DNA of 64,000 bases from a virus, in IMG/VR virus record IMGVR_UViG_3300028299_000003, positions 1 through 64,000 of that record; one strand, 5' to 3'. Of this stretch, positions 716 to 27,039 are shown piece after piece. The notes below the pieces were generated by a model, which was not told where the DNA came from, did no database searches, and saw only the letters and a program-made list of their open reading frames with translations. The translations under genes were made by a program, and so were the position numbers. Numbering within the stretch: position 1 is the first letter of the stretch; every line of letters starts with the position of its first letter.

Positions 716-1456
716 TTATTCCTCCTTGTTTTTAATTTTTATTAATCCTTTTTCTATATCTCTAACTAATGAAGCGTTTTCAAATTTTTGTTTTTTAATA
801 AGATAACATTTTAATTCATATACTTTTTCAATCGCTGTGTCAAATAATTCATTCTCCTTATCCTTCTTTTCAGTATGAAATGGTATTTCCCATTGACCAT
901 CAACACAATATTGATTTAATTTTTCATCATATGTAATATTTTTTCCATCCAATCTTATACTACCAAATTCTTTTCCGTGTAGTGACCCTTTACCAGAACG
1001 AACATAATAGAAATCGGATTCATCTGTCTCACTTATTTTTGACAAAATTTCATTTGTTTTATCATCATAAAATTTTATATCAACCATATACGCTTCTCCA
1101 CCTATTAAAGATGTCATTTTATCAAAGATAGTTGTTTTCAATTGAAATCTCAAATTTTTTATGAATTTATCAAATTTTTCAAATTCAATATTATCTAAAG
1201 TTTTTTTGTCAAAATAATATTTAGGAATAACATTATAAATATTTTCCATAATAATTTGATTACCAGATATCCATTCATTTATTAATTCTTTAGCTTTTTT
1301 ATAGTCCATAATCTTATGTAATTCATCAACATTATGTCTGAACTTTTCATTAATAGGTAAAATAAAATCAAAATATTTATTATCACGTTCTTGAACAACA
1401 ATATTTTTTATTGTGTCAATAATTTTTTGTGGGTTTATTTTTTCCATTGTTTTCAT
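716..1456 (-). CDS. Hypothetical protein with C-terminal UVR-like motif
   Basis: C-terminal KKQKFENASLVRDIEK resembles the UvrB/UvrC coiled-coil motif. Confidence 0.55.
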   Translation of the reverse strand: MKTMEKINPQKIIDTIKNIVVQERDNKYFDFILPINEKFRHNVDELHKIMDYKKAKELINEWISGNQIIMENIYNVIPKYYFDKKTLDNIEFEKFDKFIKNLRFQLKTTIFDKMTSLIGGEAYMVDIKFYDDKTNEILSKISETDESDFYYVRSGKGSLHGKEFGSIRLDGKNITYDEKLNQYCVDGQWEIPFHTEKKDKENELFDTAIEKVYELKCYLIKKQKFENASLVRDIEKGLIKIKNKEE

Positions 1457-3098: not shown

Positions 3099-4284
3099 TT
3101 AATATTTTTTTGTACATTTCTCTTCTTTTATTATTAACAACATCCATTTCATATCTATCAACAACTTTTTCATATAGTTTTTCACCCATATCTATTATCG
3201 CTGATGGATTTTCATGAAACCATTTCATTTTCTCATACCACATATTTGGTTTTGATTCATCAATCAAAAATCCATCTACACCATCCTCAATATCAATTGT
3301 ATATGGGCCATAATTACTCGCGATTATTGGGCATTTGTATATTCCCGCTTCTATTACTTTTAGTTGACTTTTATAATAGTTAAATAAACTATTATTTTTT
3401 AATGGTGACAACACAACATCCGCTTCGTGGTACATTGTACCATATGTTAATATTGGTTTTGTCCATCTTCTTTGATAAAATTCTTGTCTGAATTCTTCAA
3501 CTATACCATAGTTTTCATCACTAAATGTATTTAGATATTGTCTATGTTGCTCGTTTTTTAACCATTTACCACCATTTGTGAAAATATGTTCAAAGAATGA
3601 CCATTGATTTGATTTTGGATCACTTTTTATTATACCCTTTGGTGTCCTAACTCTTAGGTCAAAACCACATAAATATAATTGACAATCTTCTAAAAAGTCT
3701 TTATCAAACATTTCAAATGATTTTTTCATTAACCTAAGATCAGGCATATGACTTATACCACCACCCCAAAGAAATCTTATTTTATCTGAAGGTATTTTAT
3801 TTTCAACTCTCCACTGATATTCATCCTTGTTCAACGCGTTCTCCATAACAAAAACATTTTTATTTAATTCCTCAATTCTTTTCGCGAAAAGAGGTGTTGT
3901 TGTAGTTACATAATGAGCTGATTTTATCAGCCCTTCCATCATTTGTTGAGCGTTAGATTTTTTCCATCCTGAATAATTCAAATGTGAACTACTTAATATC
4001 CAATAGTCATCTATATCCCATACTATTCTTATATTATATTTATTTACAATTTCTTCAAACGCTTTACCATATTCTGGTTTACTGAAATTAATAACCTTAT
4101 TGTAAAATACAATGTTAAAATTACTCAAATATCTTTCATCTGCTAAGTTTAATGTATGATCGCTCAACATTCTTATTTCTACATCAATATCATCATACAT
4201 CATATGACTATGTGGATTTAGTATGCGATAGTAGCCAATACCATCTACATCGGCTGTTAGAGCTAGAATTTTCGGTTTTATCAT
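3088..4284 (-). CDS. GT-B fold (family 4-like) glycosyltransferase
   Basis: GYYR..P, WDIDD, and KSQLKVIEAG..PIIAS..PY...GVDGFL motifs. Confidence 0.8.
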   Translation of the reverse strand: MIKPKILALTADVDGIGYYRILNPHSHMMYDDIDVEIRMLSDHTLNLADERYLSNFNIVFYNKVINFSKPEYGKAFEEIVNKYNIRIVWDIDDYWILSSSHLNYSGWKKSNAQQMMEGLIKSAHYVTTTTPLFAKRIEELNKNVFVMENALNKDEYQWRVENKIPSDKIRFLWGGGISHMPDLRLMKKSFEMFDKDFLEDCQLYLCGFDLRVRTPKGIIKSDPKSNQWSFFEHIFTNGGKWLKNEQHRQYLNTFSDENYGIVEEFRQEFYQRRWTKPILTYGTMYHEADVVLSPLKNNSLFNYYKSQLKVIEAGIYKCPIIASNYGPYTIDIEDGVDGFLIDESKPNMWYEKMKWFHENPSAIIDMGEKLYEKVVDRYEMDVVNNKRREMYKKILSDE

Positions 4285-4372
4285 TTAACTTAATTATTTT
4301 TTATATTTTAATTGAAAAATTCATAAAAGTTTTTTTTAATATATAACAATAGATATAAAAATTAATATATAG

Positions 4373-4729
4373 ATGAAAGATTACTTAAATTTTATGAATG
4401 AAAATATGGAAACTAGTGGTTATAACTTATACATAGAAACAGATGAATCATTGTTTGATGAGAATTGGGATATATCAATAAATATATCAGACATTTGGAA
4501 ACCATATGAGGAACAAGAAATAGATTTGAAAAAATTTGTCCATAGATATAAATTAAGAATAAACGACCATAAGAATGAAATTATAGATATGAAAGGTGCT
4601 GATTCATGGAATGAGTTAGCTGGTATATTAAATGAATTCAATGTTTTTGATAATGAATCATCCCTTCACAAGTTTGATGAGATATATGACTGGGCGGATA
4701 AAAACTCAGTAGAAATGAACTGCCGCTAA
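4373..4729 (+). CDS. Hypothetical protein; last codons supplied by the IS right end
   Basis: ORF after a TATATA motif; the reading frame enters the IS right end at 4716. Confidence 0.6.
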   Translation: MKDYLNFMNENMETSGYNLYIETDESLFDENWDISINISDIWKPYEEQEIDLKKFVHRYKLRINDHKNEIIDMKGADSWNELAGILNEFNVFDNESSLHKFDEIYDWADKNSVEMNCR

Positions 4730-5944
4730 ATTAAAGATTTAGCCAACTTCTACGCCACAAGCACAATGTAACCATTCACTTTGAGTGACGCTGGGTTGGT
4801 TCCTCAACCCGAAATTTCTTATATTTATAGCAGCATTGATGTCCCTGTCGTGTATAGAACCACATTTTTTACAGGTCCATTCTCTATCATTTAAAGTTAA
4901 ATCCTTATTGATTGTTCCACAAACATTACAAGTTTTTGATGAAGGATCAAATCTACCAATCACACTTAAATTTTTACCATACCAATCACATTTGTATTCA
5001 ACCATAGATTTAAATTCAGACCACCCCATATCTAAAATGGCTTTATTCAATTCTGATTTTGCTGATTGACCATTAGGTATATATTTTCCATTTTCGTCTT
5101 GCTTTGGCTTACATCTTTTAACCATACCAGAGACATTTAAATCTTCCATACAGATTGTATCATAATTATCAACCAAGTATCGGGAAATTTTATGTAAATA
5201 ATCCTGTCTTTGATTTCTAATGTGTTCGTGTAAAAGGGCAATAACCATTTTTTGTTTTTTGTAGTGATTGGAATCCTTTGTTTTTCTTGCTAAGGATCGC
5301 TGCTCTATCCTTAGTTCATTCATAGCAGATTTAAAGAAATCGTGGTTCTTGAATTTCATTCCATCTGAAGTTATTACAAAATCTTTTATACCTAAATCTA
5401 AACCAACTGATGTTTTAAACATTATAGGTTTCTTTTCAGGTTTTAATTCGCTAGTATCAACTAGTATAGACACATAATATTTGTTAGTAATTGATCTTGA
5501 TACGGTTATAGTTTTTATTTCACCTTTAAACTCTCTATGTAAATCTATGTCTATATATCGTAATTTGGGTAAAAAAATTTGTTTTTTATTCTCACTAAAA
5601 AATACACCTTGAGGTAATTGAAATGACTGCTTCCCATATCTGTTTTTAAATTTAGGAAAGCCAGCACCATTAAAAAAATTATGATAGGCATTATCTAAAT
5701 TGCGAGTAGCCATCTGTAATGCCTGTGATGGACTTTCTTTTAACCAAGGAGCATCTGTATTTTTTAATTCGGTTATTTGTTTATTTAAATCAAAGCAATT
5801 TATGTTTTTCTTATTGCCAGTATAGTTCATTATTTTTGTTTCTAAACCAAGGTTATAGACAAATCTAACCTGACCAAAAATCTTTGATAGGTATTCTTTT
5901 TGGTCCTGATTGGGATATATTCTATATTTATATGCTTTTAACAT
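4716..5944 (-). mobile_element. IS200/IS605-family element carrying only tnpB; right end and omega-RNA region at ~4716-4810
   Basis: On the - strand, the subterminal hairpin GCTAAAT-CTTTA-ATTTAGC followed by GGCAGTTCA is a typical right end; no tnpA or clear left-end hairpin seen. Confidence 0.7.
4739..5944 (-). CDS. tnpB: RNA-guided endonuclease TnpB
   Basis: N-terminal KAYKYRIYPN HTH; RuvC motifs GLDLG, MEDL and DRDINAAINI; CxxC..CxxC zinc finger; catalytic D-E-D intact. Confidence 0.93.
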   Translation of the reverse strand: MLKAYKYRIYPNQDQKEYLSKIFGQVRFVYNLGLETKIMNYTGNKKNINCFDLNKQITELKNTDAPWLKESPSQALQMATRNLDNAYHNFFNGAGFPKFKNRYGKQSFQLPQGVFFSENKKQIFLPKLRYIDIDLHREFKGEIKTITVSRSITNKYYVSILVDTSELKPEKKPIMFKTSVGLDLGIKDFVITSDGMKFKNHDFFKSAMNELRIEQRSLARKTKDSNHYKKQKMVIALLHEHIRNQRQDYLHKISRYLVDNYDTICMEDLNVSGMVKRCKPKQDENGKYIPNGQSAKSELNKAILDMGWSEFKSMVEYKCDWYGKNLSVIGRFDPSSKTCNVCGTINKDLTLNDREWTCKKCGSIHDRDINAAINIRNFGLRNQPSVTQSEWLHCACGVEVG

Positions 5945-12637: not shown

Positions 12638-12726
12638 TAGTCCTAGAGGGATTCGAACCCCCGTTACCAAGAAAACCTTGGCGTCCTTATCCACTTTAAA
12701 GTGGAGTTCCGTTAGACGATAGGACC
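12638..12726 (-). ncRNA. tRNA-Glu-derived RNA with 5-nt anticodon loop and a hairpin in the D-loop
   Basis: GGTCCTA/TAGGACT acceptor; D-loop insert TCCAC-TTTAAA-GTGGA; CCAAG-GTTTT-CTTGG; normal TTCGAAT T-loop. Confidence 0.78.
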
Positions 12727-17296: not shown

Positions 17297-17391
17297 TGTT
17301 TTTTACATTAGAATTTTATTAATTTCTAATGGTATAAATTTAATTGAAAATTAATTAGTTTCCAAAATTTAATTGTTCTTTTTTACATGTG

Positions 17392-17690
17392 CGGCCCGTG
17401 TAGGATTCGAACCTACGACCAACAGATTACACATTATCCATAATTTTCATTACGGGGTGGACTATATCATCATCTCTACTGAGATGTCGGACGCTATTAA
17501 AGGTTTATTGATTGATTTTCTCACCTTTTAGTCTCTGCACCTTCCCAAATACTCTTATAATCTTCTCTGGGCTTGGATCAGGATTGCCATATTAAAGGTT
17601 TCCCTGAGTTCATCCGATTTTCCATATGTGGTCACCCACATACGCTGCAATCTTTACAGTCTGCTGCTCTACCAGCTGAGCTAACGAGCC
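17392..17690 (-). tRNA. tRNA-Asn(GUU), intron-containing
   Basis: Exons 17690-17656 and 17429-17392 join to GCAGA-CT GTT AA-TCTGT; G73. Confidence 0.9.
17430..17655 (-). ncRNA. Group I intron (226 nt, no ORF) between anticodon positions 35 and 36
   Basis: P1 CUGU^AA/UUGCAG with U.G at the splice site; core AATCCTGA, GCAGAGACTA and GATATAGTCC; terminal G. Confidence 0.9.
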
Positions 17691-17866: not shown

Positions 17867-17870
17867 ATTG

Positions 17871-17945
17871 CGGTGACGACCAGATTTGAACTGGCGATCT
17901 CCTGAGTGACAGTCAGGAATGTTAGGCCATCTACACCACGTCACC
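17871..17945 (-). tRNA. tRNA-Asp(GUC)
   Basis: CCTGA-CT GTC AC-TCAGG; G73. Confidence 0.93.
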
Positions 17946-18400
17946 TTATTTTAACCATTTTCTTATTGCGTTATCACTTACACCATATTTTCTTCCTGTT
18001 CCTTTATATCCAAGTTCTTCAATATCTTTTAATAGTGTTTCTTTATCAGGTCTTTCTACTTTTCTTTGTTTTAAATCTGCACATTTTTTACATCTTTTTG
18101 ATTGTCTATCTTTTTTGTTGCCACATTTACAATAATAATTTCCATTATAGAATCCATAATTATTTTTTATATTTTTTGCACCATGTGTGTCTAAAGTTAC
18201 ATTACAATTTGGACAAACAATTCTTAAATTTTCTAATCTATTATCATCATTTATACCATTAATATGATCCAATACAAATATTAATTTTTTCCCCATCCAT
18301 TCTTCATCTTGACCACAAATTTCACATTTTTTTTCTTTCAATCCTTCATAGAATTCTTAACAATATTAGTAAAATGATTTTCTTCATATCTATTTTGCAT
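17946..18400 (-). pseudogene. HNH homing endonuclease, internally deleted or frameshifted
   Basis: LDHINGINDDNRLENLRIVCPNC; the ATG at 18400 (MQNRYEEN...) is out of frame with the HNH part; much shorter than its paralogue at 19043. Confidence 0.65.
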
Positions 18401-18471
18401 ATTCTTTTTTATTTGTATATTAAAATCTGAATACCAAAAACTGTCAATTAAATCAAAGAACGTCTTTTTTG

Positions 18472-18548
18472 TTGGGAAGGTGGGATTTGAACCCACATGT
18501 GACCAGTTACCGTTTCAACACTTTATAAGAGTGAGCGGATACATCCCA
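18472..18548 (-). tRNA. Non-canonical tRNA-Ile(UAU)-like, D-loop 3' of the anticodon arm
   Basis: TGGGATG TAT CCG CT CACT-CT TAT AA-AGTG TTGAAA CGG TAACTGG TCACAT GTGGG-TTCAAAT-CCCAC CTTCCCA A. Confidence 0.72.
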
Positions 18549-18560
18549 GTTTTTATATTG

Positions 18561-18710
18561 TTAGTGTGAGTGGATACGATGAATTGAATTTGTCGGATTG
18601 GGTGGGGTCGAACCACCATGTAACCAATTAACCTTTCAACTGCTTATCAGGCAGAGGGTTTACAATCCGTTTTGTTAGAGAATCACTCTAACCAATTGAG
18701 CTACACACCC
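18561..18710 (-). pseudogene. Disrupted canonical tRNA gene (probably Ile) split by the non-canonical tRNA-Ile(GAU)
   Basis: 5' half GGGTGTG TA GCTC AATTGGTTA GAGT G ATTCT CT (18710-18677) and 3' remnant ATCCACT CACACTA A (~18575-18561). Confidence 0.65.
18593..18669 (-). tRNA. Non-canonical tRNA-Ile(GAU)-like, D-loop 3' of the anticodon arm
   Basis: CGGATTG TA AACC CT CTGC-CT GAT AA-GCAG TTGAAA GGTT AATTGG TTACAT GGTGG-TTCGACC-CCACC CAATCCG A. Confidence 0.75.
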
Positions 18711-18715
18711 GTTTG

Positions 18716-18798
18716 TGACCGAAGTGGGAATCGAACCCACATGAGCTTAGCTCAAAGGTTTTTAAGACCTTCGCGTCTGCCAGTTCCGCCATTCAGCC
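18716..18798 (-). tRNA. tRNA-Leu(UAA)
   Basis: AAGGT-CT TAA AA-ACCTT, long variable arm. Confidence 0.93.
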
Positions 18799-18880: not shown

Positions 18881-18957
18881 CGGTCCCAAAGGGATTCGAA
18901 CCCTTCTGTTATTCCTCCGTGACAGGGAGGTAGCCACACCCAGCAACTCCTGAGACC
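18881..18957 (-). tRNA. tRNA-Asp(GUC), atypical D-arm and variable loop
   Basis: CCTCC-CT GTC AC-GGAGG; G8G9, no A14, 8-nt variable region; G73. Confidence 0.82.
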
Positions 18958-20072: not shown

Positions 20073-20081
20073 GAATTTTTG

Positions 20082-20163
20082 TGAGAGGGGTAGGATTCGA
20101 ACCTACAAGTCCCGAAGGAAACGGGGTTACAGCCCGCCGAGCCACCAGCTGCTCAACCCTCCC
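20082..20163 (-). tRNA. tRNA-Tyr(GUA)
   Basis: GCGGG-CT GTA AC-CCCGT, variable arm with UUCG loop. Confidence 0.92.
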
Positions 20164-20193: not shown

Positions 20194-20226
20194 AAAAACA
20201 AAAAACCCAATCTTTTGGATTGGGTT
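20194..20226 (-). terminator. Attenuator terminator upstream of the tRNA operon
   Basis: AACCCAATC-CAAAA-GATTGGGTT followed by TTTTGTTTTT, between the promoter and the first tRNA. Confidence 0.8.
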
Positions 20227-20250
20227 CGGATTACTTCAAGTTATAAAAAC

Positions 20251-20340
20251 TCATCGTAGCAATACAAACCCATCATCCATATCTAGATATAAATCTATAT
20301 TATAGAGATTAATAATGTTCATATTTGAATTTCGTGTCAT
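20251..20340 (-). CDS. Putative attenuator leader peptide MTRNSNMNIINLYNIDLYLDMDDGFVLLR
   Basis: 29 codons plus TGA; A-rich upstream; the 3' part (20274-20258) is complementary to the terminator 5' arm (20235-20218); codons match the downstream tRNAs. Confidence 0.75.
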   Translation of the reverse strand: MTRNSNMNIINLYNIDLYLDMDDGFVLLR

Positions 20341-24669: not shown

Positions 24670-26253
24670 ATGAGCATTTTAAAACTAAATACATATAATT
24701 TCAATGAATTAGATTGGCCAAGAGATGGTAGGTTTCTACTTGGTTTTAGTGGAACAACAATAGCTGATACAGAATTAGCTTATATGGACCCAAATGGTAA
24801 GGTAACTATAGTAAGAGGTGCTGGTGGTGGATCAAGTACTTCAGGTACATCAGGAACTTCAGGAACTTCAGGTACAGATGGAACCTCAGGAACCTCAGGC
24901 ACAGATGGAACATCAGGCACTTCAGGCACAGATGGAACATCAGGAACAGATGGTGCTGATGGGAGTGGTAGTTCAGGAACTTCAGGCACAGATGGTACTG
25001 ATGGTAGTGGTAGTTCAGGAACTTCAGGCACAGATGGAGTTGATGGAAATGGTAGTTCAGGAACAGATGGAACATCAGGCACTTCAGGCACAGATGGCAC
25101 TTCAGGTAGATGGGGAACTTTAATTTTAAATGGTGACGGTTATGGAACAACAGATTGGATAAATCCAACTAATGGACTTGCTGATCAATGGTCAATTGGT
25201 GGTGGATGGATTAGATCTATATGGAATAATGTTAGTGGATTTACAGATAATGCTCAGTTTTTTACACCAGATGGTGATTGGAGTGGAAATGGTATTGAAG
25301 AGGCGTCTTATATATTAGAGACTGGTCAACAATATACATTTTCTATGAAATATAGTAGTAACAGAGAAATACACGTTTTTGATAGTAATATAGTTAATAG
25401 CTATTTTAAATTCCCATCAAATGATGGACCAGCGGTATTTGTCTCTGGATTAACAACCGCGTTAGCGGATGATTATTTGTCTTTTGGATGGTCTGGTGAT
25501 ACAAGTATTCAGTTTGGTGATTGGTGGGTGATAGATGAGGTTAATTTGTATATTGGTGATATAGGATTACCTAGTGATGGTAGTTCAGGAACATCTGGTA
25601 CTGATGGTGTTGGTGGAGCTGATGGGTGGGTATATTATGGTATAGGATACACTGGATCAACATCTGGATTTACATTAACACACACAACCGATACAACAAC
25701 AATGAAAATCGGTAGACCAATAAGATACTTTATACCAAATGAAATGACATATTATGGTATTATTGTTTCAAGAGTTGATGGTGGAACCTATGATAATTTT
25801 GGGATTGAGGGAGCCCCCCTACCAACTGGTACATCTATGAATGTTTATTATGGTCCGATGAGTTATGTTGACAATAAATATTTTCTAATAAATGGTGATT
25901 ACGCGGATTCTGATGATACTACGTTATTAACCAATGATTTATTGATGCCTAATGGATATTACTGGAATCAAGGAACCGCGTATTTGGTTAGACAACGATG
26001 TGTCGCGTCTAGTATAGGTAGTGGTTCAGCTCCGAGTATATCACCAACTATACGTGGAAATGAGGTATTACAGACAAAGGATGACATATCGGTTAGTTTA
26101 GTAACATCTGGTGTTGATATAAATCCATCAAATTATAAATTAACAGATCAAGATAATATTGATTTTTCAATTAGAACAGCTGGTGTATCTGGAACCCCAA
26201 GAGACTTGGCATTATATATAACAACAATCTTGGGTGATAATCATACTTTATAA
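24670..26253 (+). CDS. Virion fibre protein with collagen-like G-T-S/D repeats
   Basis: About 30 GTS/GTD/GSS triplets followed by beta-rich domains. Confidence 0.75.
   Translation: MSILKLNTYNFNELDWPRDGRFLLGFSGTTIADTELAYMDPNGKVTIVRGAGGGSSTSGTSGTSGTSGTDGTSGTSGTDGTSGTSGTDGTSGTDGADGSGSSGTSGTDGTDGSGSSGTSGTDGVDGNGSSGTDGTSGTSGTDGTSGRWGTLILNGDGYGTTDWINPTNGLADQWSIGGGWIRSIWNNVSGFTDNAQFFTPDGDWSGNGIEEASYILETGQQYTFSMKYSSNREIHVFDSNIVNSYFKFPSNDGPAVFVSGLTTALADDYLSFGWSGDTSIQFGDWWVIDEVNLYIGDIGLPSDGSSGTSGTDGVGGADGWVYYGIGYTGSTSGFTLTHTTDTTTMKIGRPIRYFIPNEMTYYGIIVSRVDGGTYDNFGIEGAPLPTGTSMNVYYGPMSYVDNKYFLINGDYADSDDTTLLTNDLLMPNGYYWNQGTAYLVRQRCVASSIGSGSAPSISPTIRGNEVLQTKDDISVSLVTSGVDINPSNYKLTDQDNIDFSIRTAGVSGTPRDLALYITTILGDNHTL
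24838..25107 (+). repeat. 9-nt-unit tandem repeat encoding Gly-X-Y triplets
   Basis: ggaacatca / ggcacagat type units. Confidence 0.85.
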
Positions 26254-26268
26254 AAAATAAATTAAATA

Positions 26269-27039
26269 ATGTCATTAAGAAACGGTTTTGGTAATGATTC
26301 TCATACAGTTCTTTTAACAAGTGCGAGTGAACAAAAATTAAGTGAATCACCTTATATTATTGATTCCTCATATAGTTATCCAGGTGGTGGTCATCACTGT
26401 TATGTTAGTGGTATAACAACAGGTGATGGTAGTATACATGGAGTTTTTGAAAGACGTGATGGAGTAAATAGAACATGGATTACAACTGGAACAACAGCGG
26501 AAGAAAACTGGGTATATCTTGATTGTAGAGATAATCTAGATGATTTTAGTTTCGGTGATGGTGATTTCTGTATAGATTTTTGGATAAAATTAACAGCGGT
26601 TCCAGTTGCTTCACCAACTATTATATATGGTTCAAATGGAGTATTTATAAATGATAATAATTTTTATGCTTTTGGGTACACTAATGAACAAGGTGGGTTT
26701 CAATCTGGTTTCACATTTATGGTAAGAGAATCTGGGAGTTATAATTTGATATTGACACACTCAACAGGTATGACAAATAATAATTGGTATCATATCGCGT
26801 TGTCTCGTCACAATGGATATATTAGAATGTTTTGGAATGGTGATTATGTAACTGGGACTACATATAATAATACGATGCCTAATTTTAATCATTCATATTT
26901 TATAGGTGTTATGAATGCTTTATGGGATGATCCAGGACTTGTTAAATCCAAATTAAGTGCGTATTATGATGAATTTAGAATATCAAAAGGGCACCCTAGA
27001 TGGACTAGTAGTTTTACTCTACCAAATAGAGAATATTAA
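26269..27039 (+). CDS. LamG/concanavalin-A-like virion protein
   Basis: GDFCIDFWIK, NNWYHIALSR and YDEFRISKG..RWTSSFT.P motifs. Confidence 0.8.
   Translation: MSLRNGFGNDSHTVLLTSASEQKLSESPYIIDSSYSYPGGGHHCYVSGITTGDGSIHGVFERRDGVNRTWITTGTTAEENWVYLDCRDNLDDFSFGDGDFCIDFWIKLTAVPVASPTIIYGSNGVFINDNNFYAFGYTNEQGGFQSGFTFMVRESGSYNLILTHSTGMTNNNWYHIALSRHNGYIRMFWNGDYVTGTTYNNTMPNFNHSYFIGVMNALWDDPGLVKSKLSAYYDEFRISKGHPRWTSSFTLPNREY

What the first reader, a model, noticed from the sequence alone, without database searches (positions are those of the whole stretch)
18472..18669. Two tRNA-Ile-like RNAs with rewired topology (D-loop after the anticodon arm)
SEEN: both have a 7-bp acceptor stem (one mismatch in the UAU copy), a normal T-arm, A73 and a 7-nt CT-NAT-AA loop (GAU and UAU, both Ile), but no D hairpin 5' of the anticodon. 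Instead, the 5' D-stem strand (AACC or CCG) pairs with a strand 3' of the anticodon arm (GGTT or CGG) across a conserved TTGAAA. The D-loop signature AAYTGG follows on the 3' side, then TYACAT. All stems differ between the two copies while keeping pairing, and the linkers are conserved. The leader peptide contains both ATT and ATA. INFERENCE: these are functional Ile tRNAs with an alternative secondary structure that could rebuild the D/T elbow and evade host tRNA nucleases. UAU would also bypass TilS lysidylation. Standard tRNA finders would probably miss or mis-score them.
Basis: partly seen in the sequence, partly recalled or inferred. Interest (0 to 1): 0.85.

Follow-up and report, generated by a model that had tools for sequence, protein, structure and literature searches.

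The report
Phage isoleucine tRNAs with permuted core
Two genes in a lake-water giant phage most likely encode working isoleucine tRNAs whose inner segments are joined in swapped order (anticodon arm first, D-loop second), a non-cloverleaf design shared by hundreds of phage Ile and Arg tRNA genes that gene finders miss and that I found in no paper.

Summary
On the minus strand, 18593-18669 (anticodon GAU) and 18472-18548 (UAU) have a normal acceptor stem, T arm, anticodon loop and A73. They have no D hairpin. Instead a short helix closes around the anticodon arm and is followed by a complete D-loop sequence.

This is one large phage family. Two truncated scans gave 191 distinct genes in 262 loci. 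The cross-arm helix pairs in 44/44 Ile-type and 53/53 Arg-type sequences, with many compensatory changes.

New tests here:
- The base after GG (position 20) is U in 96 Ile/CAU genes and A in 92 Arg genes. This matches known IleRS and ArgRS identity rules.
- The Levitt pair covaries: A/U in 164 genes, G/C in 4, none mixed.
- Swapping the two blocks back makes ARAGORN, 154 as ordinary tRNAs, against 0/154 in native order.
- Rewired and canonical genes with the same anticodon mostly exclude each other.

In this phage they are the only Ile tRNAs, and ATA is the fifth commonest codon.

The best reading is functional tRNA-Ile with an internally circularly permuted core. No experiment supports this yet. 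Nuclease evasion is untested.

This scan has already noted the family on more than 60 other genomes. I found no published description.

The parts
18593..18669 (-). Copy B: rewired tRNA-Ile(GAU), 77 nt. RNA positions map to window coordinates as follows. Acceptor 5' strand 18669-18663. U8 A9 18662-18661. Cross-arm helix 5' strand AACC 18660-18657. Anticodon loop 18650-18644, with anticodon GAU at 18648-18646. Linker UUGAAA 18639-18634. Helix 3' strand GGUU 18633-18630. Relocated D-loop AAUUGGUUA 18629-18621. CAU 18620-18618. T arm 18617-18601. Acceptor 3' strand 18600-18594. A73 18593.
   Evidence: Sequence. Rfam tRNA model 28.9 bits. Family model R1 92.0 bits. All four helices are supported by covariation.
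18472..18548 (-). Copy A: rewired tRNA-Ile(UAU), 77 nt. Acceptor 5' strand 18548-18542, with a U6.U67 mismatch. Helix 5' strand UCCG 18539-18536. Anticodon UAU 18527-18525. UUGAAA 18518-18513. Helix 3' strand CGGU 18512-18509. Relocated D-loop AACUGGUCA 18508-18500. CAU 18499-18497. T arm 18496-18480. Acceptor 3' strand 18479-18473. A73 18472.
   Evidence: Sequence. Rfam tRNA model 31.0 bits. R1 96.8 bits.
18549..18592 (-). 44-nt AT-rich spacer between the two genes. No fold and no relatives were found.
   Evidence: RNAfold gives 0 kcal/mol. BLAST finds only chance words.
18670..18712 (-). Orphan 5' fragment of a canonical tRNA, lying directly upstream of copy B. It comprises the acceptor 5' strand, a complete D arm and part of an anticodon stem. 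It is probably a scar of gene replacement.
   Evidence: Sequence. No matching T arm or acceptor 3' strand lies downstream. Only generic D-arm words match elsewhere. A similar scar lies upstream of a rewired Arg(UCU) gene in L154.
17946..18341 (-). 131-aa ORF with an HNH endonuclease motif, 131 nt downstream of copy A.
   Evidence: Pfam PF01844 scores 21.3 bits against a cut-off of 21.4, E 3e-4. Rewired genes are enriched next to HNH ORFs.
20251..20340 (-). 29-codon leader ORF at the head of the tRNA operon. 23 of its 28 sense codons are read by the operon's own tRNAs, including ATT, ATT and ATA.
   Evidence: background 0.409, binomial P about 1e-5, uninterrupted run of 18 codons.
20203..20227 (-). 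Terminator-like hairpin with a U-run, between the leader ORF and the first tRNA (Tyr, 20081-20163).
   Evidence: Consensus scan. This is a pattern match only.

Best explanation
Both genes encode functional elongator tRNA-Ile. UAU would read AUA, and GAU would read AUU and AUC.

Their core is an internal circular permutation of the cloverleaf. In standard numbering, block 10-21 (D-stem 5' strand plus D-loop) and block 22-45 (D-stem 3' strand, position 26, anticodon arm, start of the variable loop) have changed places.

How the RNA would run:
- From U8 and A9 the chain goes straight into the strand that plays positions 22-25.
- It continues through the anticodon arm and returns through a conserved NNGAAA linker into the strand that plays 10-13.
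- It then forms a normal D-loop: A14, A15, G18, G19, U20, A21.
- It reaches the T stem through CAU, where the U plays position 48.

Secondary structure is therefore a long nested hairpin (cross-arm helix stacked on the anticodon stem) plus a normal acceptor/T limb. The predicted three-dimensional structure is the usual L, with the D-loop/T-loop elbow intact.

Steps shown here by sequence comparison:
- the helices;
- the 15-48 pairing;
- the coupling of position 20 and the discriminator base to the anticodon;
- the exact block-swap relation to canonical tRNAs;
- complementarity with canonical genes.

Steps inferred, not shown: processing, CCA addition, charging by host IleRS, and use on the ribosome.

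The selective reason for the layout is unknown. An origin by tandem duplication of the core followed by loss of the outer copies is a conjecture.
For: 1. Helices. In 44 diverse Ile-type genes, 92% of cells pair against 59.5% in shuffles. The cross-arm pairs 11-39, 12-38 and 13-37 are paired in 44/44, with 10, 20 and 12 double changes. Slid controls give 41-49%. RNAalifold finds the same helices unaided. The Arg-type set repeats this: 53/53 paired, with 27, 14 and 5 double changes.

2. The relocated segment acts as a D-loop.
- The base after GG is U in 92 Ile, 4 CAU and 1 UAC genes and in no Arg gene. It is A in 92 Arg genes and 1 Ile gene (Fisher 2e-54, not corrected for phylogeny). A scan with G or C at this position found nothing.
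- This matches published identity sets: A20 is the main ArgRS determinant, and D20, D21 and G16 serve IleRS (PMC9976931).
- The discriminator is A in 93/93 Ile-type genes but G, A or U in the Arg type, as those identity sets predict.

3. Levitt pair. The 15-equivalent and 48-equivalent bases are A/U in 164 genes and G/C in 4 genes from 3 contigs, with none mixed.

4. Un-permuting. Moving positions 37-49 in front of 10-36 makes ARAGORN, 154 as canonical tRNAs, with the expected anticodon in 152. Native order gives 0/154. A control with the D block reversed gives 6/154.

5. Substitution. In loci with at least 5 tRNAs, rewired and canonical genes of the same anticodon rarely coexist:
- UAU: 1 locus with both, 26 rewired only, 26 canonical only.
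- ACG: 0, 33, 24.
- UCU: 1, 14, 53.

6. This phage.
- No canonical tRNA-Ile occurs in the 76.6-kb record.
- ATA is 53.7 per 1000 codons and ATT 33.5.
- The leader ORF's codons mirror the operon's anticodons, and its run of 18 matched codons includes ATT, ATT and ATA.

7. A 335-nt contig from a lake metatranscriptome is identical to 18447-18781. The flanking ORFs have no cover in that run. This is only a weak hint of transcription.
Against: - There is no experimental evidence of processing, charging or decoding.
- The metatranscriptome contig has depth 2.3, and DNA carry-over is not excluded.
- GAU-type rewired genes do coexist with canonical GAU genes in 9 of 26 loci. Mildred21 has canonical Ile(gat) and Ile(tat) alongside its rewired GAU gene. 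The rewired copy is therefore not always needed to fill a gap.
- The anticodon stem has only 4 Watson-Crick pairs plus an invariant U.U. Position 10.40 is U.U in 42/44 sequences.
- The conserved U44-A51 and G45-C50 could form a 2-bp mini-hairpin that competes with the elbow. These columns never vary, so this cannot be judged.
- The contingency tests treat related phages as independent.
- A later check of a sister claim in this scan put the bold reading at only 30/100.
Confidence: 0.72

Rival explanations
1. The RNAs are tRNA mimics that are not used in translation. They could be decoys or sponges for a host or phage enzyme that binds tRNA-Ile or tRNA-Arg. Or they could be tRNA-shaped processing signals (RNase P or RNase Z punctuation) for the neighbouring homing-endonuclease transcripts.
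For: - Rewired genes lie within 200 nt of an HNH ORF 2.5 times more often than canonical tRNAs do: 21.4% against 9.7%.
- In a marine UAU group the HNH ORF ends 1 nt from the RNA.
- GAU copies coexist with canonical GAU genes.
- No charging data exist.
Against: - A decoy or punctuation mark has no need for an invariant A73, for position 20 and the discriminator to switch with the anticodon, or for U33 and purine-37 loops.
- It also has no reason to exclude canonical genes of the same anticodon.
- About 79% of rewired genes have no HNH neighbour.
- In this phage they are the only possible Ile decoders, and ATA is a top-five codon.
Confidence: 0.15
2. They are D-armless tRNAs in the mitochondrial style, with a long unstructured variable region. 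On this view the cross-arm helix and the 'D-loop' resemblance are incidental. This is the fold the Rfam alignment implies.
For: Rfam's tRNA model aligns them exactly this way, with the D arm deleted and an 18-nt insert.
Against: - The cross-arm helix is paired in 97 of 97 aligned sequences, with dozens of compensatory changes.
- The insert is the most conserved part of the molecule.
- The insert carries A14, R15, G18, G19 and A21 equivalents, with 15-48 covariation and isotype-specific position 20.
- Total length is 77 nt, not the roughly 60 nt of armless mitochondrial tRNAs.
Confidence: 0.05
3. They are decayed tRNA pseudogenes or rearrangement scars left by homing-endonuclease traffic in the tRNA cluster.
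For: An orphan tRNA half lies directly upstream of copy B. HNH genes surround the cluster.
Against: - There are 191 distinct sequences in 262 loci from unrelated phages of Streptomyces, Microbacterium and Salmonella, and from lake, marine and soil samples.
- All keep the same layout, with compensatory changes in every helix.
- The descriptor finds 249 hits against 1 in the control.
Confidence: 0.02
4. This concerns why the layout exists, and is compatible with the best explanation. The permuted core is selected because it escapes host tRNA-targeting defences, or the phage's own tRNA-degrading enzymes, that read the D arm or variable loop.
For: No tool result here bears on it directly. Published context: defence systems do cleave tRNAs, including in the variable loop of tRNA-Tyr (Septu; abstract of PMC13096335).
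Against: - No known defence nuclease is specific for both Ile and Arg tRNAs. This rests on my own knowledge.
- Canonical Ile and Arg genes are abundant in the same phage clusters.
- The anticodon loop, the usual target, is unchanged.
Confidence: 0.15

Closest known systems
Canonical bacterial and phage class I tRNA-Ile and tRNA-Arg (Rfam RF00005), such as Mildred21 tRNA-Ile(tat) at MF155946 75913-75986
   Same: - 7/5 acceptor/T branch, T loop UUCRANY, and a 7-nt anticodon loop with U33 and A37.
- Discriminator rules match (A73 for Ile).
- All tertiary-interaction nucleotides are present: U8, A14, R15-Y48, G18, G19, A21.
- Position 20 is isotype-specific.
- Length is similar, 77 against 74-76 nt.
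- They lie in the same gene clusters.
   Different: - Segment order differs. The D-stem 3' strand and anticodon arm come before the D-stem 5' strand and D-loop, so there is no D hairpin and the secondary structure is not a cloverleaf.
- A conserved NNGAAA linker replaces positions 44-45.
- The variable loop is reduced to CAU.
Permuted tRNA genes of the red alga Cyanidioschyzon merolae (PMC3728597)
   Same: Both are tRNA genes whose segments are encoded in non-standard order.
   Different: - In the alga, whole 3' and 5' halves are swapped in the gene. They are processed through a circular intermediate and bulge-helix-bulge cleavage into a normal cloverleaf.
- Here the two ends are in their normal places and only an internal block is permuted.
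- No splice motif is present, and no processing could restore the standard order. The mature RNA itself must be permuted.
D-arm-lacking mitochondrial tRNAs, such as metazoan mt-tRNA-Ser(AGY) (PMC4013460, PMC7609411)
   Same: Neither has a D hairpin 5' of the anticodon arm, and both have an extended anticodon-side helix.
   Different: - The mitochondrial forms are shortened, have lost the D-loop and the G18G19/T-loop contact, and depend on co-evolved mitochondrial factors.
- The phage RNAs keep every D-arm element at full length, and presumably use the standard bacterial machinery.
allo-tRNAs and other (8/4) or (9/3) tRNAs of bacteria and phages (Mukai et al., PMC5389517)
   Same: Both are non-canonical tRNAs found by metagenome mining, partly in phage tRNA clusters. 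UAU is a frequent allo-tRNA anticodon.
   Different: - allo-tRNAs have an 8/4 or 9/3 acceptor/T branch and a long V arm. They are Ser or Ala acceptors whatever their anticodon.
- The present RNAs are 7/5, have no V-arm hairpin, and carry Ile or Arg identity elements that match their anticodons.

Membership tests
tRNA (functional class; Rfam RF00005) | 7-bp acceptor stem with an unpaired discriminator base | tested here: met
   Copy B has 7/7 pairs. Copy A has 6/7, with U.U at 6-67. A73 is present in both. All 7 pairs covary in the family.
tRNA (functional class; Rfam RF00005) | T arm: 5-bp stem and a 7-nt UUCRANY loop | tested here: met
   GGUGG/UUCGACC/CCACC in copy B and GUGGG/UUCAAAU/CCCAC in copy A. 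98% of cells pair in the family.
tRNA (functional class; Rfam RF00005) | Anticodon arm: 5-bp stem and a 7-nt loop with U33 and purine 37 | tested here: met
   The loops are CUGAUAA and CUUAUAA. The stem has 4 Watson-Crick pairs, plus a conserved U.U in the place of the fifth pair.
tRNA (functional class; Rfam RF00005) | D arm as a hairpin between the acceptor stem and the anticodon arm (the cloverleaf) | tested here: not met
   Only 8 nt separate the acceptor and anticodon stems. Rfam deletes the D arm in its alignment. ARAGORN fails in three modes.
tRNA (functional class; Rfam RF00005) | Rfam gathering score of 29 bits | tested here: inconclusive
   Copy A scores 31.0 bits, which passes. Copy B scores 28.9 bits, just below. 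Neither was reported in the whole-window gathering run.
tRNA (functional class; Rfam RF00005) | Tertiary-core nucleotides: U8, A14, R15-Y48, G18, G19, A21 | tested here: met
   All are present, in permuted order. The 15/48 pair covaries: 164 A/U, 4 G/C, none mixed. After the block swap, ARAGORN accepts 154/154.
tRNA-Ile (bacterial identity set: anticodon, A37, A38, A73, D-loop 16/20/21, U12-A23; PMC9976931) | NAU anticodon, A37, A73, U at position 20 | tested here: met
   Both copies have them. In the family, A73 is present in 93/93 and U20 in 92 of 93 Ile-type genes. In copy B the pair A11-U39 corresponds to U12-A23 under the permuted numbering, which is my inference.
tRNA-Ile (bacterial identity set) | Aminoacylation by IleRS and decoding of AUH codons | not testable with these tools
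   This needs a charging assay or tRNA-seq of infected cells.
D-armless mitochondrial-type tRNA | Loss of the D-arm elements, with a shortened molecule of about 55-65 nt | tested here: not met
   The RNAs are 77 nt, and both the D stem and the D-loop sequence are retained.
allo-tRNA / (8/4),(9/3) tRNAs | 8/4 or 9/3 acceptor/T branch and a long V arm | tested here: not met
   The branch is 7/5, and there is no V-arm hairpin.
Permuted or split tRNA genes (C. merolae type) | 3' half encoded upstream of the 5' half, with a bulge-helix-bulge motif that restores a cloverleaf | tested here: not met
   The acceptor 5' and 3' strands are at the gene's ends. Only an internal block is permuted.

The most novel reading that the evidence does not exclude
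The permuted gene order may be an immunity allele of a selfish cassette. On this reading, HNH homing endonucleases in phage tRNA clusters cut canonical tRNA-Ile or tRNA-Arg genes of competing phages. The block-swapped gene still makes a working L-shaped tRNA, but it no longer contains the target DNA. The pair (endonuclease plus rewired tRNA) would then spread by replacing canonical genes.

This would explain several observations:
- the 2.5-fold enrichment of HNH neighbours;
- the near-exclusion of canonical genes with the same anticodon;
- the truncated canonical tRNA fragments directly upstream of rewired genes, here at 18670-18712 and in L154;
- the wide spread across unrelated phages.
Probability: 0.2. 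Interest if true: 0.9.

Novelty: new variant of a known kind. Interest (0 to 1): 0.85.

Why it matters
The cloverleaf is treated as universal for cytoplasmic and bacterial tRNAs. If these RNAs are charged and decode, several things follow.
[quoted passage not shown] What they read would then be the three-dimensional shape and a few nucleotides, not the chain connectivity.
- tRNA counts for many phages would be systematically too low or wrong. For example, Mildred21 gene 169 is annotated tRNA-Phe but is a rewired Arg(UCG). Felix O1 has an unannotated Arg(UCU) gene.
- Analyses of phage codon use and tRNA complement would need revision.
- A natural new scaffold would become available for orthogonal tRNA engineering.
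- The question of how far tRNA topology can vary becomes directly testable in cultured systems: Streptomyces BE-cluster phages, Microbacterium phages and Felix O1.

Tried and rejected
- ARAGORN in standard, intron-allowing and metazoan-mitochondrial modes. None calls either copy correctly. The intron mode makes an implausible 120-nt 'tRNA-Ile(aat)' that fuses the orphan half with copy B.
- Megablast of the 3.3-kb tRNA region against cultured phages gave no match.
- RNAalifold's extra 2-bp hairpin (44-51, 45-50) involves invariant columns, so it cannot be judged.
- A scan with G or C at position 20 gave 0 hits.
- The divergent UCU gene of L046, searched against cultured phages, gave no match.
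- I looked for the missing 3' half of the orphan tRNA in the spacer. No T arm is present, and BLAST finds only generic D-arm words.
- The singleton 'other' anticodons from my descriptor (TCC, AAA, CAG, AGC, ACC and others) are mis-parsed canonical or type II tRNAs.
- allo-tRNA membership is rejected, because the branch is 7/5.
- Pfam recognised only 4 of 10 sampled HNH neighbours, three of them below its cut-off. PHROGs recognised 10 of 10 as endonucleases: 7 HNH, 1 endonuclease VII, 2 weakly.
- Parts of the laid 4-kb stretch have no cover in the two RNA runs. Short 20-nt pieces there come from other organisms' T arms. I draw no conclusion from these.
- The genome collection gave only 7 MAG contigs. 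At least one is the same 362,763-bp contig that IMG/VR lists as viral. I did not test the other six for phage genes.
- Eight full-text literature searches and four papers read found no description of this layout.
- I could not learn which part of a sister claim 'fell' in a later check.
Full report
WHAT IS THERE

The window is part of a 76.6-kb IMG/VR virus record. CheckV estimates it at 11% complete. It has 25% G+C. It carries tail-fibre, SbcC-like and several HNH genes, so it is a large tailed phage. It recurs in lake-water metagenomes.

A minus-strand tRNA operon runs from about 20.2 kb down to 12.6 kb. The two RNAs of the finding lie inside it, at 18593-18669 (copy B, anticodon GAU) and 18472-18548 (copy A, anticodon UAU).

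Both read, 5' to 3':
- acceptor strand (7 nt), then U A;
- a 4-nt strand (AACC in B, UCCG in A), then C U;
- a 4-bp anticodon stem flanked by U.U, with a 7-nt loop (CUGAUAA or CUUAUAA);
- UUGAAA;
- the complementary strand (GGUU or CGGU);
- AAYUGGUYA, then CAU;
- a standard T arm, the acceptor 3' strand, and A.

Standard tools handle them poorly:
- ARAGORN misses both in three modes.
- Rfam's tRNA model gives 31.0 and 28.9 bits against a threshold of 29. It does this by deleting the D arm and inserting 18 nt in the variable region.

A LARGE FAMILY, NOT A LOCAL ODDITY

- A pattern taken from the linker and D-loop-like segment, with no anticodon constraint, found 53 viral contigs.
- These gave 89 distinct 77-nt sequences with anticodons TAT (63), GAT (21), CAT (4) and TAC (1), all with A at the discriminator.

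On 44 representatives below 88% identity:
- 92% of pair cells are standard pairs, against 59.5% in shuffles and 41-49% in slid controls.
- The cross-arm pairs 11-39, 12-38 and 13-37 are paired in all 44, with 10, 20 and 12 double changes.
- Position 10.40 is U.U in 42. It is A-U in copy B.
- RNAalifold predicts the same helices without guidance.

A covariance model built from this set separates family members (76-98 bits) from canonical tRNAs (30 bits or less). It also exposed an intermediate class.

THE SISTER CLASS CARRIES ARGININE ANTICODONS

The intermediate hits have the same layout with CCU, UCU, UCG or ACG anticodons.

I repeated the pattern scan with a single change, U to A after GG. 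Almost all of these carry Arg anticodons.

Pooling 191 distinct genes from 262 loci:
- U after GG goes with 92 Ile, 4 CAU and 1 UAC genes, and with no Arg gene.
- A after GG goes with 92 Arg genes and 1 Ile gene (Fisher 2e-54, not corrected for relatedness).
- G or C at that position was never found.
- The discriminator is A in 93/93 Ile-type genes. In the Arg type it is G (42), A (33) or U (17).

This is what the published bacterial identity sets predict (PMC9976931):
- A20 is the main ArgRS determinant, with C35, U/G36 and a variable position 73.
- IleRS reads A73, the anticodon loop and D-loop positions 16, 20 and 21.

So the relocated segment behaves as a real D-loop read by the cognate synthetase. 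The Arg-type alignment independently supports the cross-arm helix: 53/53 paired, with 27, 14 and 5 double changes.

A motif-free structural descriptor gave 249 hits in 2.43 Mb, against 1 in reversed sequence. It found only Ile, Arg and CAU anticodons plus one UAC. The remaining singletons are mis-parsed canonical tRNAs.

TERTIARY STRUCTURE AND THE NATURE OF THE REARRANGEMENT

Map the strand after the anticodon arm to positions 10-13, and the following AAYUGGNYA to positions 14-21. The U just before the T stem then falls at position 48.

The 15/48 equivalents are A/U in 164 genes. They are G/C in 4 genes from 3 contigs, with three different anticodons. None is mixed. This is the covariation expected of the Levitt pair.

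The layout is exactly canonical block 10-21 exchanged with block 22-45. To test this, I moved positions 37-49 in front of 10-36 and trimmed the linker to two bases:
- ARAGORN then of 154 genes as ordinary tRNAs, with the expected anticodon in 152.
- Native order gives 0 of 154.
- A control with the D block reversed gives 6 of 154.

The RNA is therefore an internal circular permutation of the tRNA core. The chain runs 9 to 22-25, then 26, then the anticodon arm, then the linker, then 10-13, then 14-21, then 46-48, then 49.

Strand polarities are compatible with the normal coaxial D/anticodon stack and with the D-loop/T-loop elbow. This geometric argument is inference, because no three-dimensional prediction was available.

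A simple origin would be tandem duplication of the core followed by loss of the outer copies. That is conjecture.

EVIDENCE THAT THEY SERVE AS tRNAs

In loci with at least five tRNAs, rewired and canonical genes with the same anticodon nearly exclude each other:
- UAU: 1 locus with both, 26 rewired only, 26 canonical only (P 0.016).
- ACG: 0, 33, 24 (P 0.001).
- UCU: 1, 14, 53 (P 0.005).
- GAU is an exception: 9, 17, 50.

In this phage:
- No canonical tRNA-Ile exists in the whole record.
- ATA is the fifth most used codon at 53.7 per 1000. ATT is 33.5 per 1000.
- The operon begins with a 29-codon leader ORF (20251-20340) followed by a terminator-like hairpin.
- 23 of the leader's 28 sense codons belong to the set read by the operon's own tRNAs, against a background of 0.409 (binomial about 1e-5).
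- The leader's uninterrupted run of 18 such codons contains ATT, ATT and ATA. Only the two rewired genes could read these.

One 335-nt contig of a lake metatranscriptome is identical to 18447-18781. It spans both genes, the spacer and the orphan fragment. The flanking ORFs have no cover in that run. This is a weak hint of a polycistronic precursor. Depth is 2.3 and DNA carry-over is possible.

WHERE ELSE, AND ANNOTATION

Among cultured phages the Ile type occurs in about 80 Streptomyces BE-cluster genomes. It also occurs in a few Microbacterium phages and a Kehishuvirus, almost always unannotated.

Mildred21 carries:
- a rewired Ile(GAU) just after its tRNA nucleotidyltransferase gene;
- an unannotated rewired Arg(ACG);
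- a rewired Arg(UCG) that GenBank labels tRNA-Phe(gaa).

Felix O1 has an unannotated rewired Arg(UCU) at 25951-26029, overlapping the start of an HNH gene.

ARAGORN overlaps only 3 of 239 rewired genes.

In one genome per prokaryote species, the Ile-type pattern occurs on only 7 contigs, all from MAGs. One of them has the same length (362,763 bp) and the same element as an IMG/VR viral contig.

WHY THIS LAYOUT

This is unknown.

I noticed an association with homing endonucleases:
- Copy A is followed by an ORF with an HNH motif.
- 21.4% of distinct rewired genes lie within 200 nt of an HNH-type ORF. The figure is 9.7% for canonical tRNAs and 8.4% for canonical Ile/Arg genes in the same loci (P 2e-5).
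- All 10 sampled neighbours match endonuclease PHROGs: seven HNH, one endonuclease VII, two weaker endonuclease matches.
- In a marine UAU group the HNH ORF abuts the tRNA.
- Copy B is directly preceded by the 5' part of a canonical tRNA (18670-18712). L154 shows a truncated canonical Arg(UCU) just upstream of a rewired Arg(UCU).

These observations fit a cassette that replaces canonical genes. They allow the speculative reading that permutation makes the gene immune to an endonuclease that targets the canonical DNA.

NOVELTY

Eight full-text searches and four papers read turned up no description. The reading included the reviews on non-canonical tRNAs and on tRNA identity, and the allo-tRNA paper.

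This scan has noted the same family on more than 60 other genomes. One later check rated the bold reading at only 30/100. I therefore keep my confidence at 0.72 despite the added tests.

VERDICT

The most likely explanation is functional tRNA-Ile(GAU) and tRNA-Ile(UAU) with a circularly permuted core, members of a phage-wide Ile/Arg family. This is a new variant of a known kind and of high interest. It awaits charging and structural experiments, which are feasible in cultured phages.

Noticed in passing
window 20203-20340 (minus strand): A 29-codon leader ORF plus a terminator-like hairpin lies directly upstream of the first tRNA of the operon. 23 of its 28 sense codons are those read by the downstream tRNAs, including the rare codons CGA (twice) and CTC. 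It looks like a leader-peptide attenuator of a tRNA operon.
   Followed up: partly
window 18670-18712 (minus strand): An orphan 5' part of a canonical tRNA (acceptor strand, full D arm, start of the anticodon stem) abuts copy B. No matching 3' half was found. It is probably a replacement scar.
   Followed up: partly
window 12638-12726 (minus strand): An 89-nt tRNA-like gene (Rfam 38.3 bits, missed by standard ARAGORN). A GUC/GAC stem encloses a D-loop-like UAACGGAA plus an extra 5-bp hairpin. A second hairpin sits in the anticodon position with only a 5-nt loop. Its isotype is unclear.
   Followed up: no
window 18881-18957 (minus strand): A second tRNA-Asp(GUC) has an unusual D arm (about a 6-bp stem with a 5-nt UGGGU loop) and an 8-nt variable region. 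Rfam gives only 32.9 bits. A canonical tRNA-Asp(GUC) lies at 17870-17945.
   Followed up: no
window 17391-17690 (minus strand): tRNA-Asn(GUU) is interrupted in its anticodon loop by a group I intron (Rfam RF00028, 96 bits, at 17438-17666). ARAGORN with introns allowed reports a 226-nt intron.
   Followed up: partly
L272:20368-20443 (Streptomyces phage Mildred21, MF155946 91367-91442): The gene annotated tRNA-Phe(gaa) is a rewired tRNA-Arg(UCG), with loop CUUCGAA and GGA in the relocated D-loop. The annotation reads the anticodon one base out of register.
   Followed up: partly
L273:25951-26029 (Salmonella phage Felix O1, NC_005282): An unannotated rewired tRNA-Arg(UCU) overlaps the start of HNH endonuclease ORF45 (26003-26395).
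   Followed up: partly
L154, 70 nt upstream of the rewired Arg(UCU) gene at 1184-1260 (minus strand): A truncated canonical tRNA-Arg(UCU), with the D arm and anticodon loop present and the rest missing, lies just upstream of a rewired gene with the same anticodon.
   Followed up: no
alignment A1, columns 5-72 and 6-71 (for example window copy A, L006, L012, L019): U.U or C.U mismatches recur at acceptor pairs 5-68 and 6-67 in a subgroup whose 3' strand reads CUUCCCN. 10 of 44 sequences are unpaired at 6-67. This could be an identity feature or an anti-determinant.
   Followed up: no
L054, reverse-complement coordinates 4151-4245 (the same phage type as L029): A 94-nt gene with a GUA (Tyr) anticodon loop lies close to the acceptor stem, and a GUGG motif sits inside a later hairpin. 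It may be a rewired type II tRNA-Tyr, or it may be a mis-parse.
   Followed up: no
L028 about 4089-5165, also L052 and L055: Some phages carry five or more rewired genes in a row (CAU, CAU, UAU, UCG, ACG). Two of them have an extra hairpin between the D-loop and the T stem.
   Followed up: no
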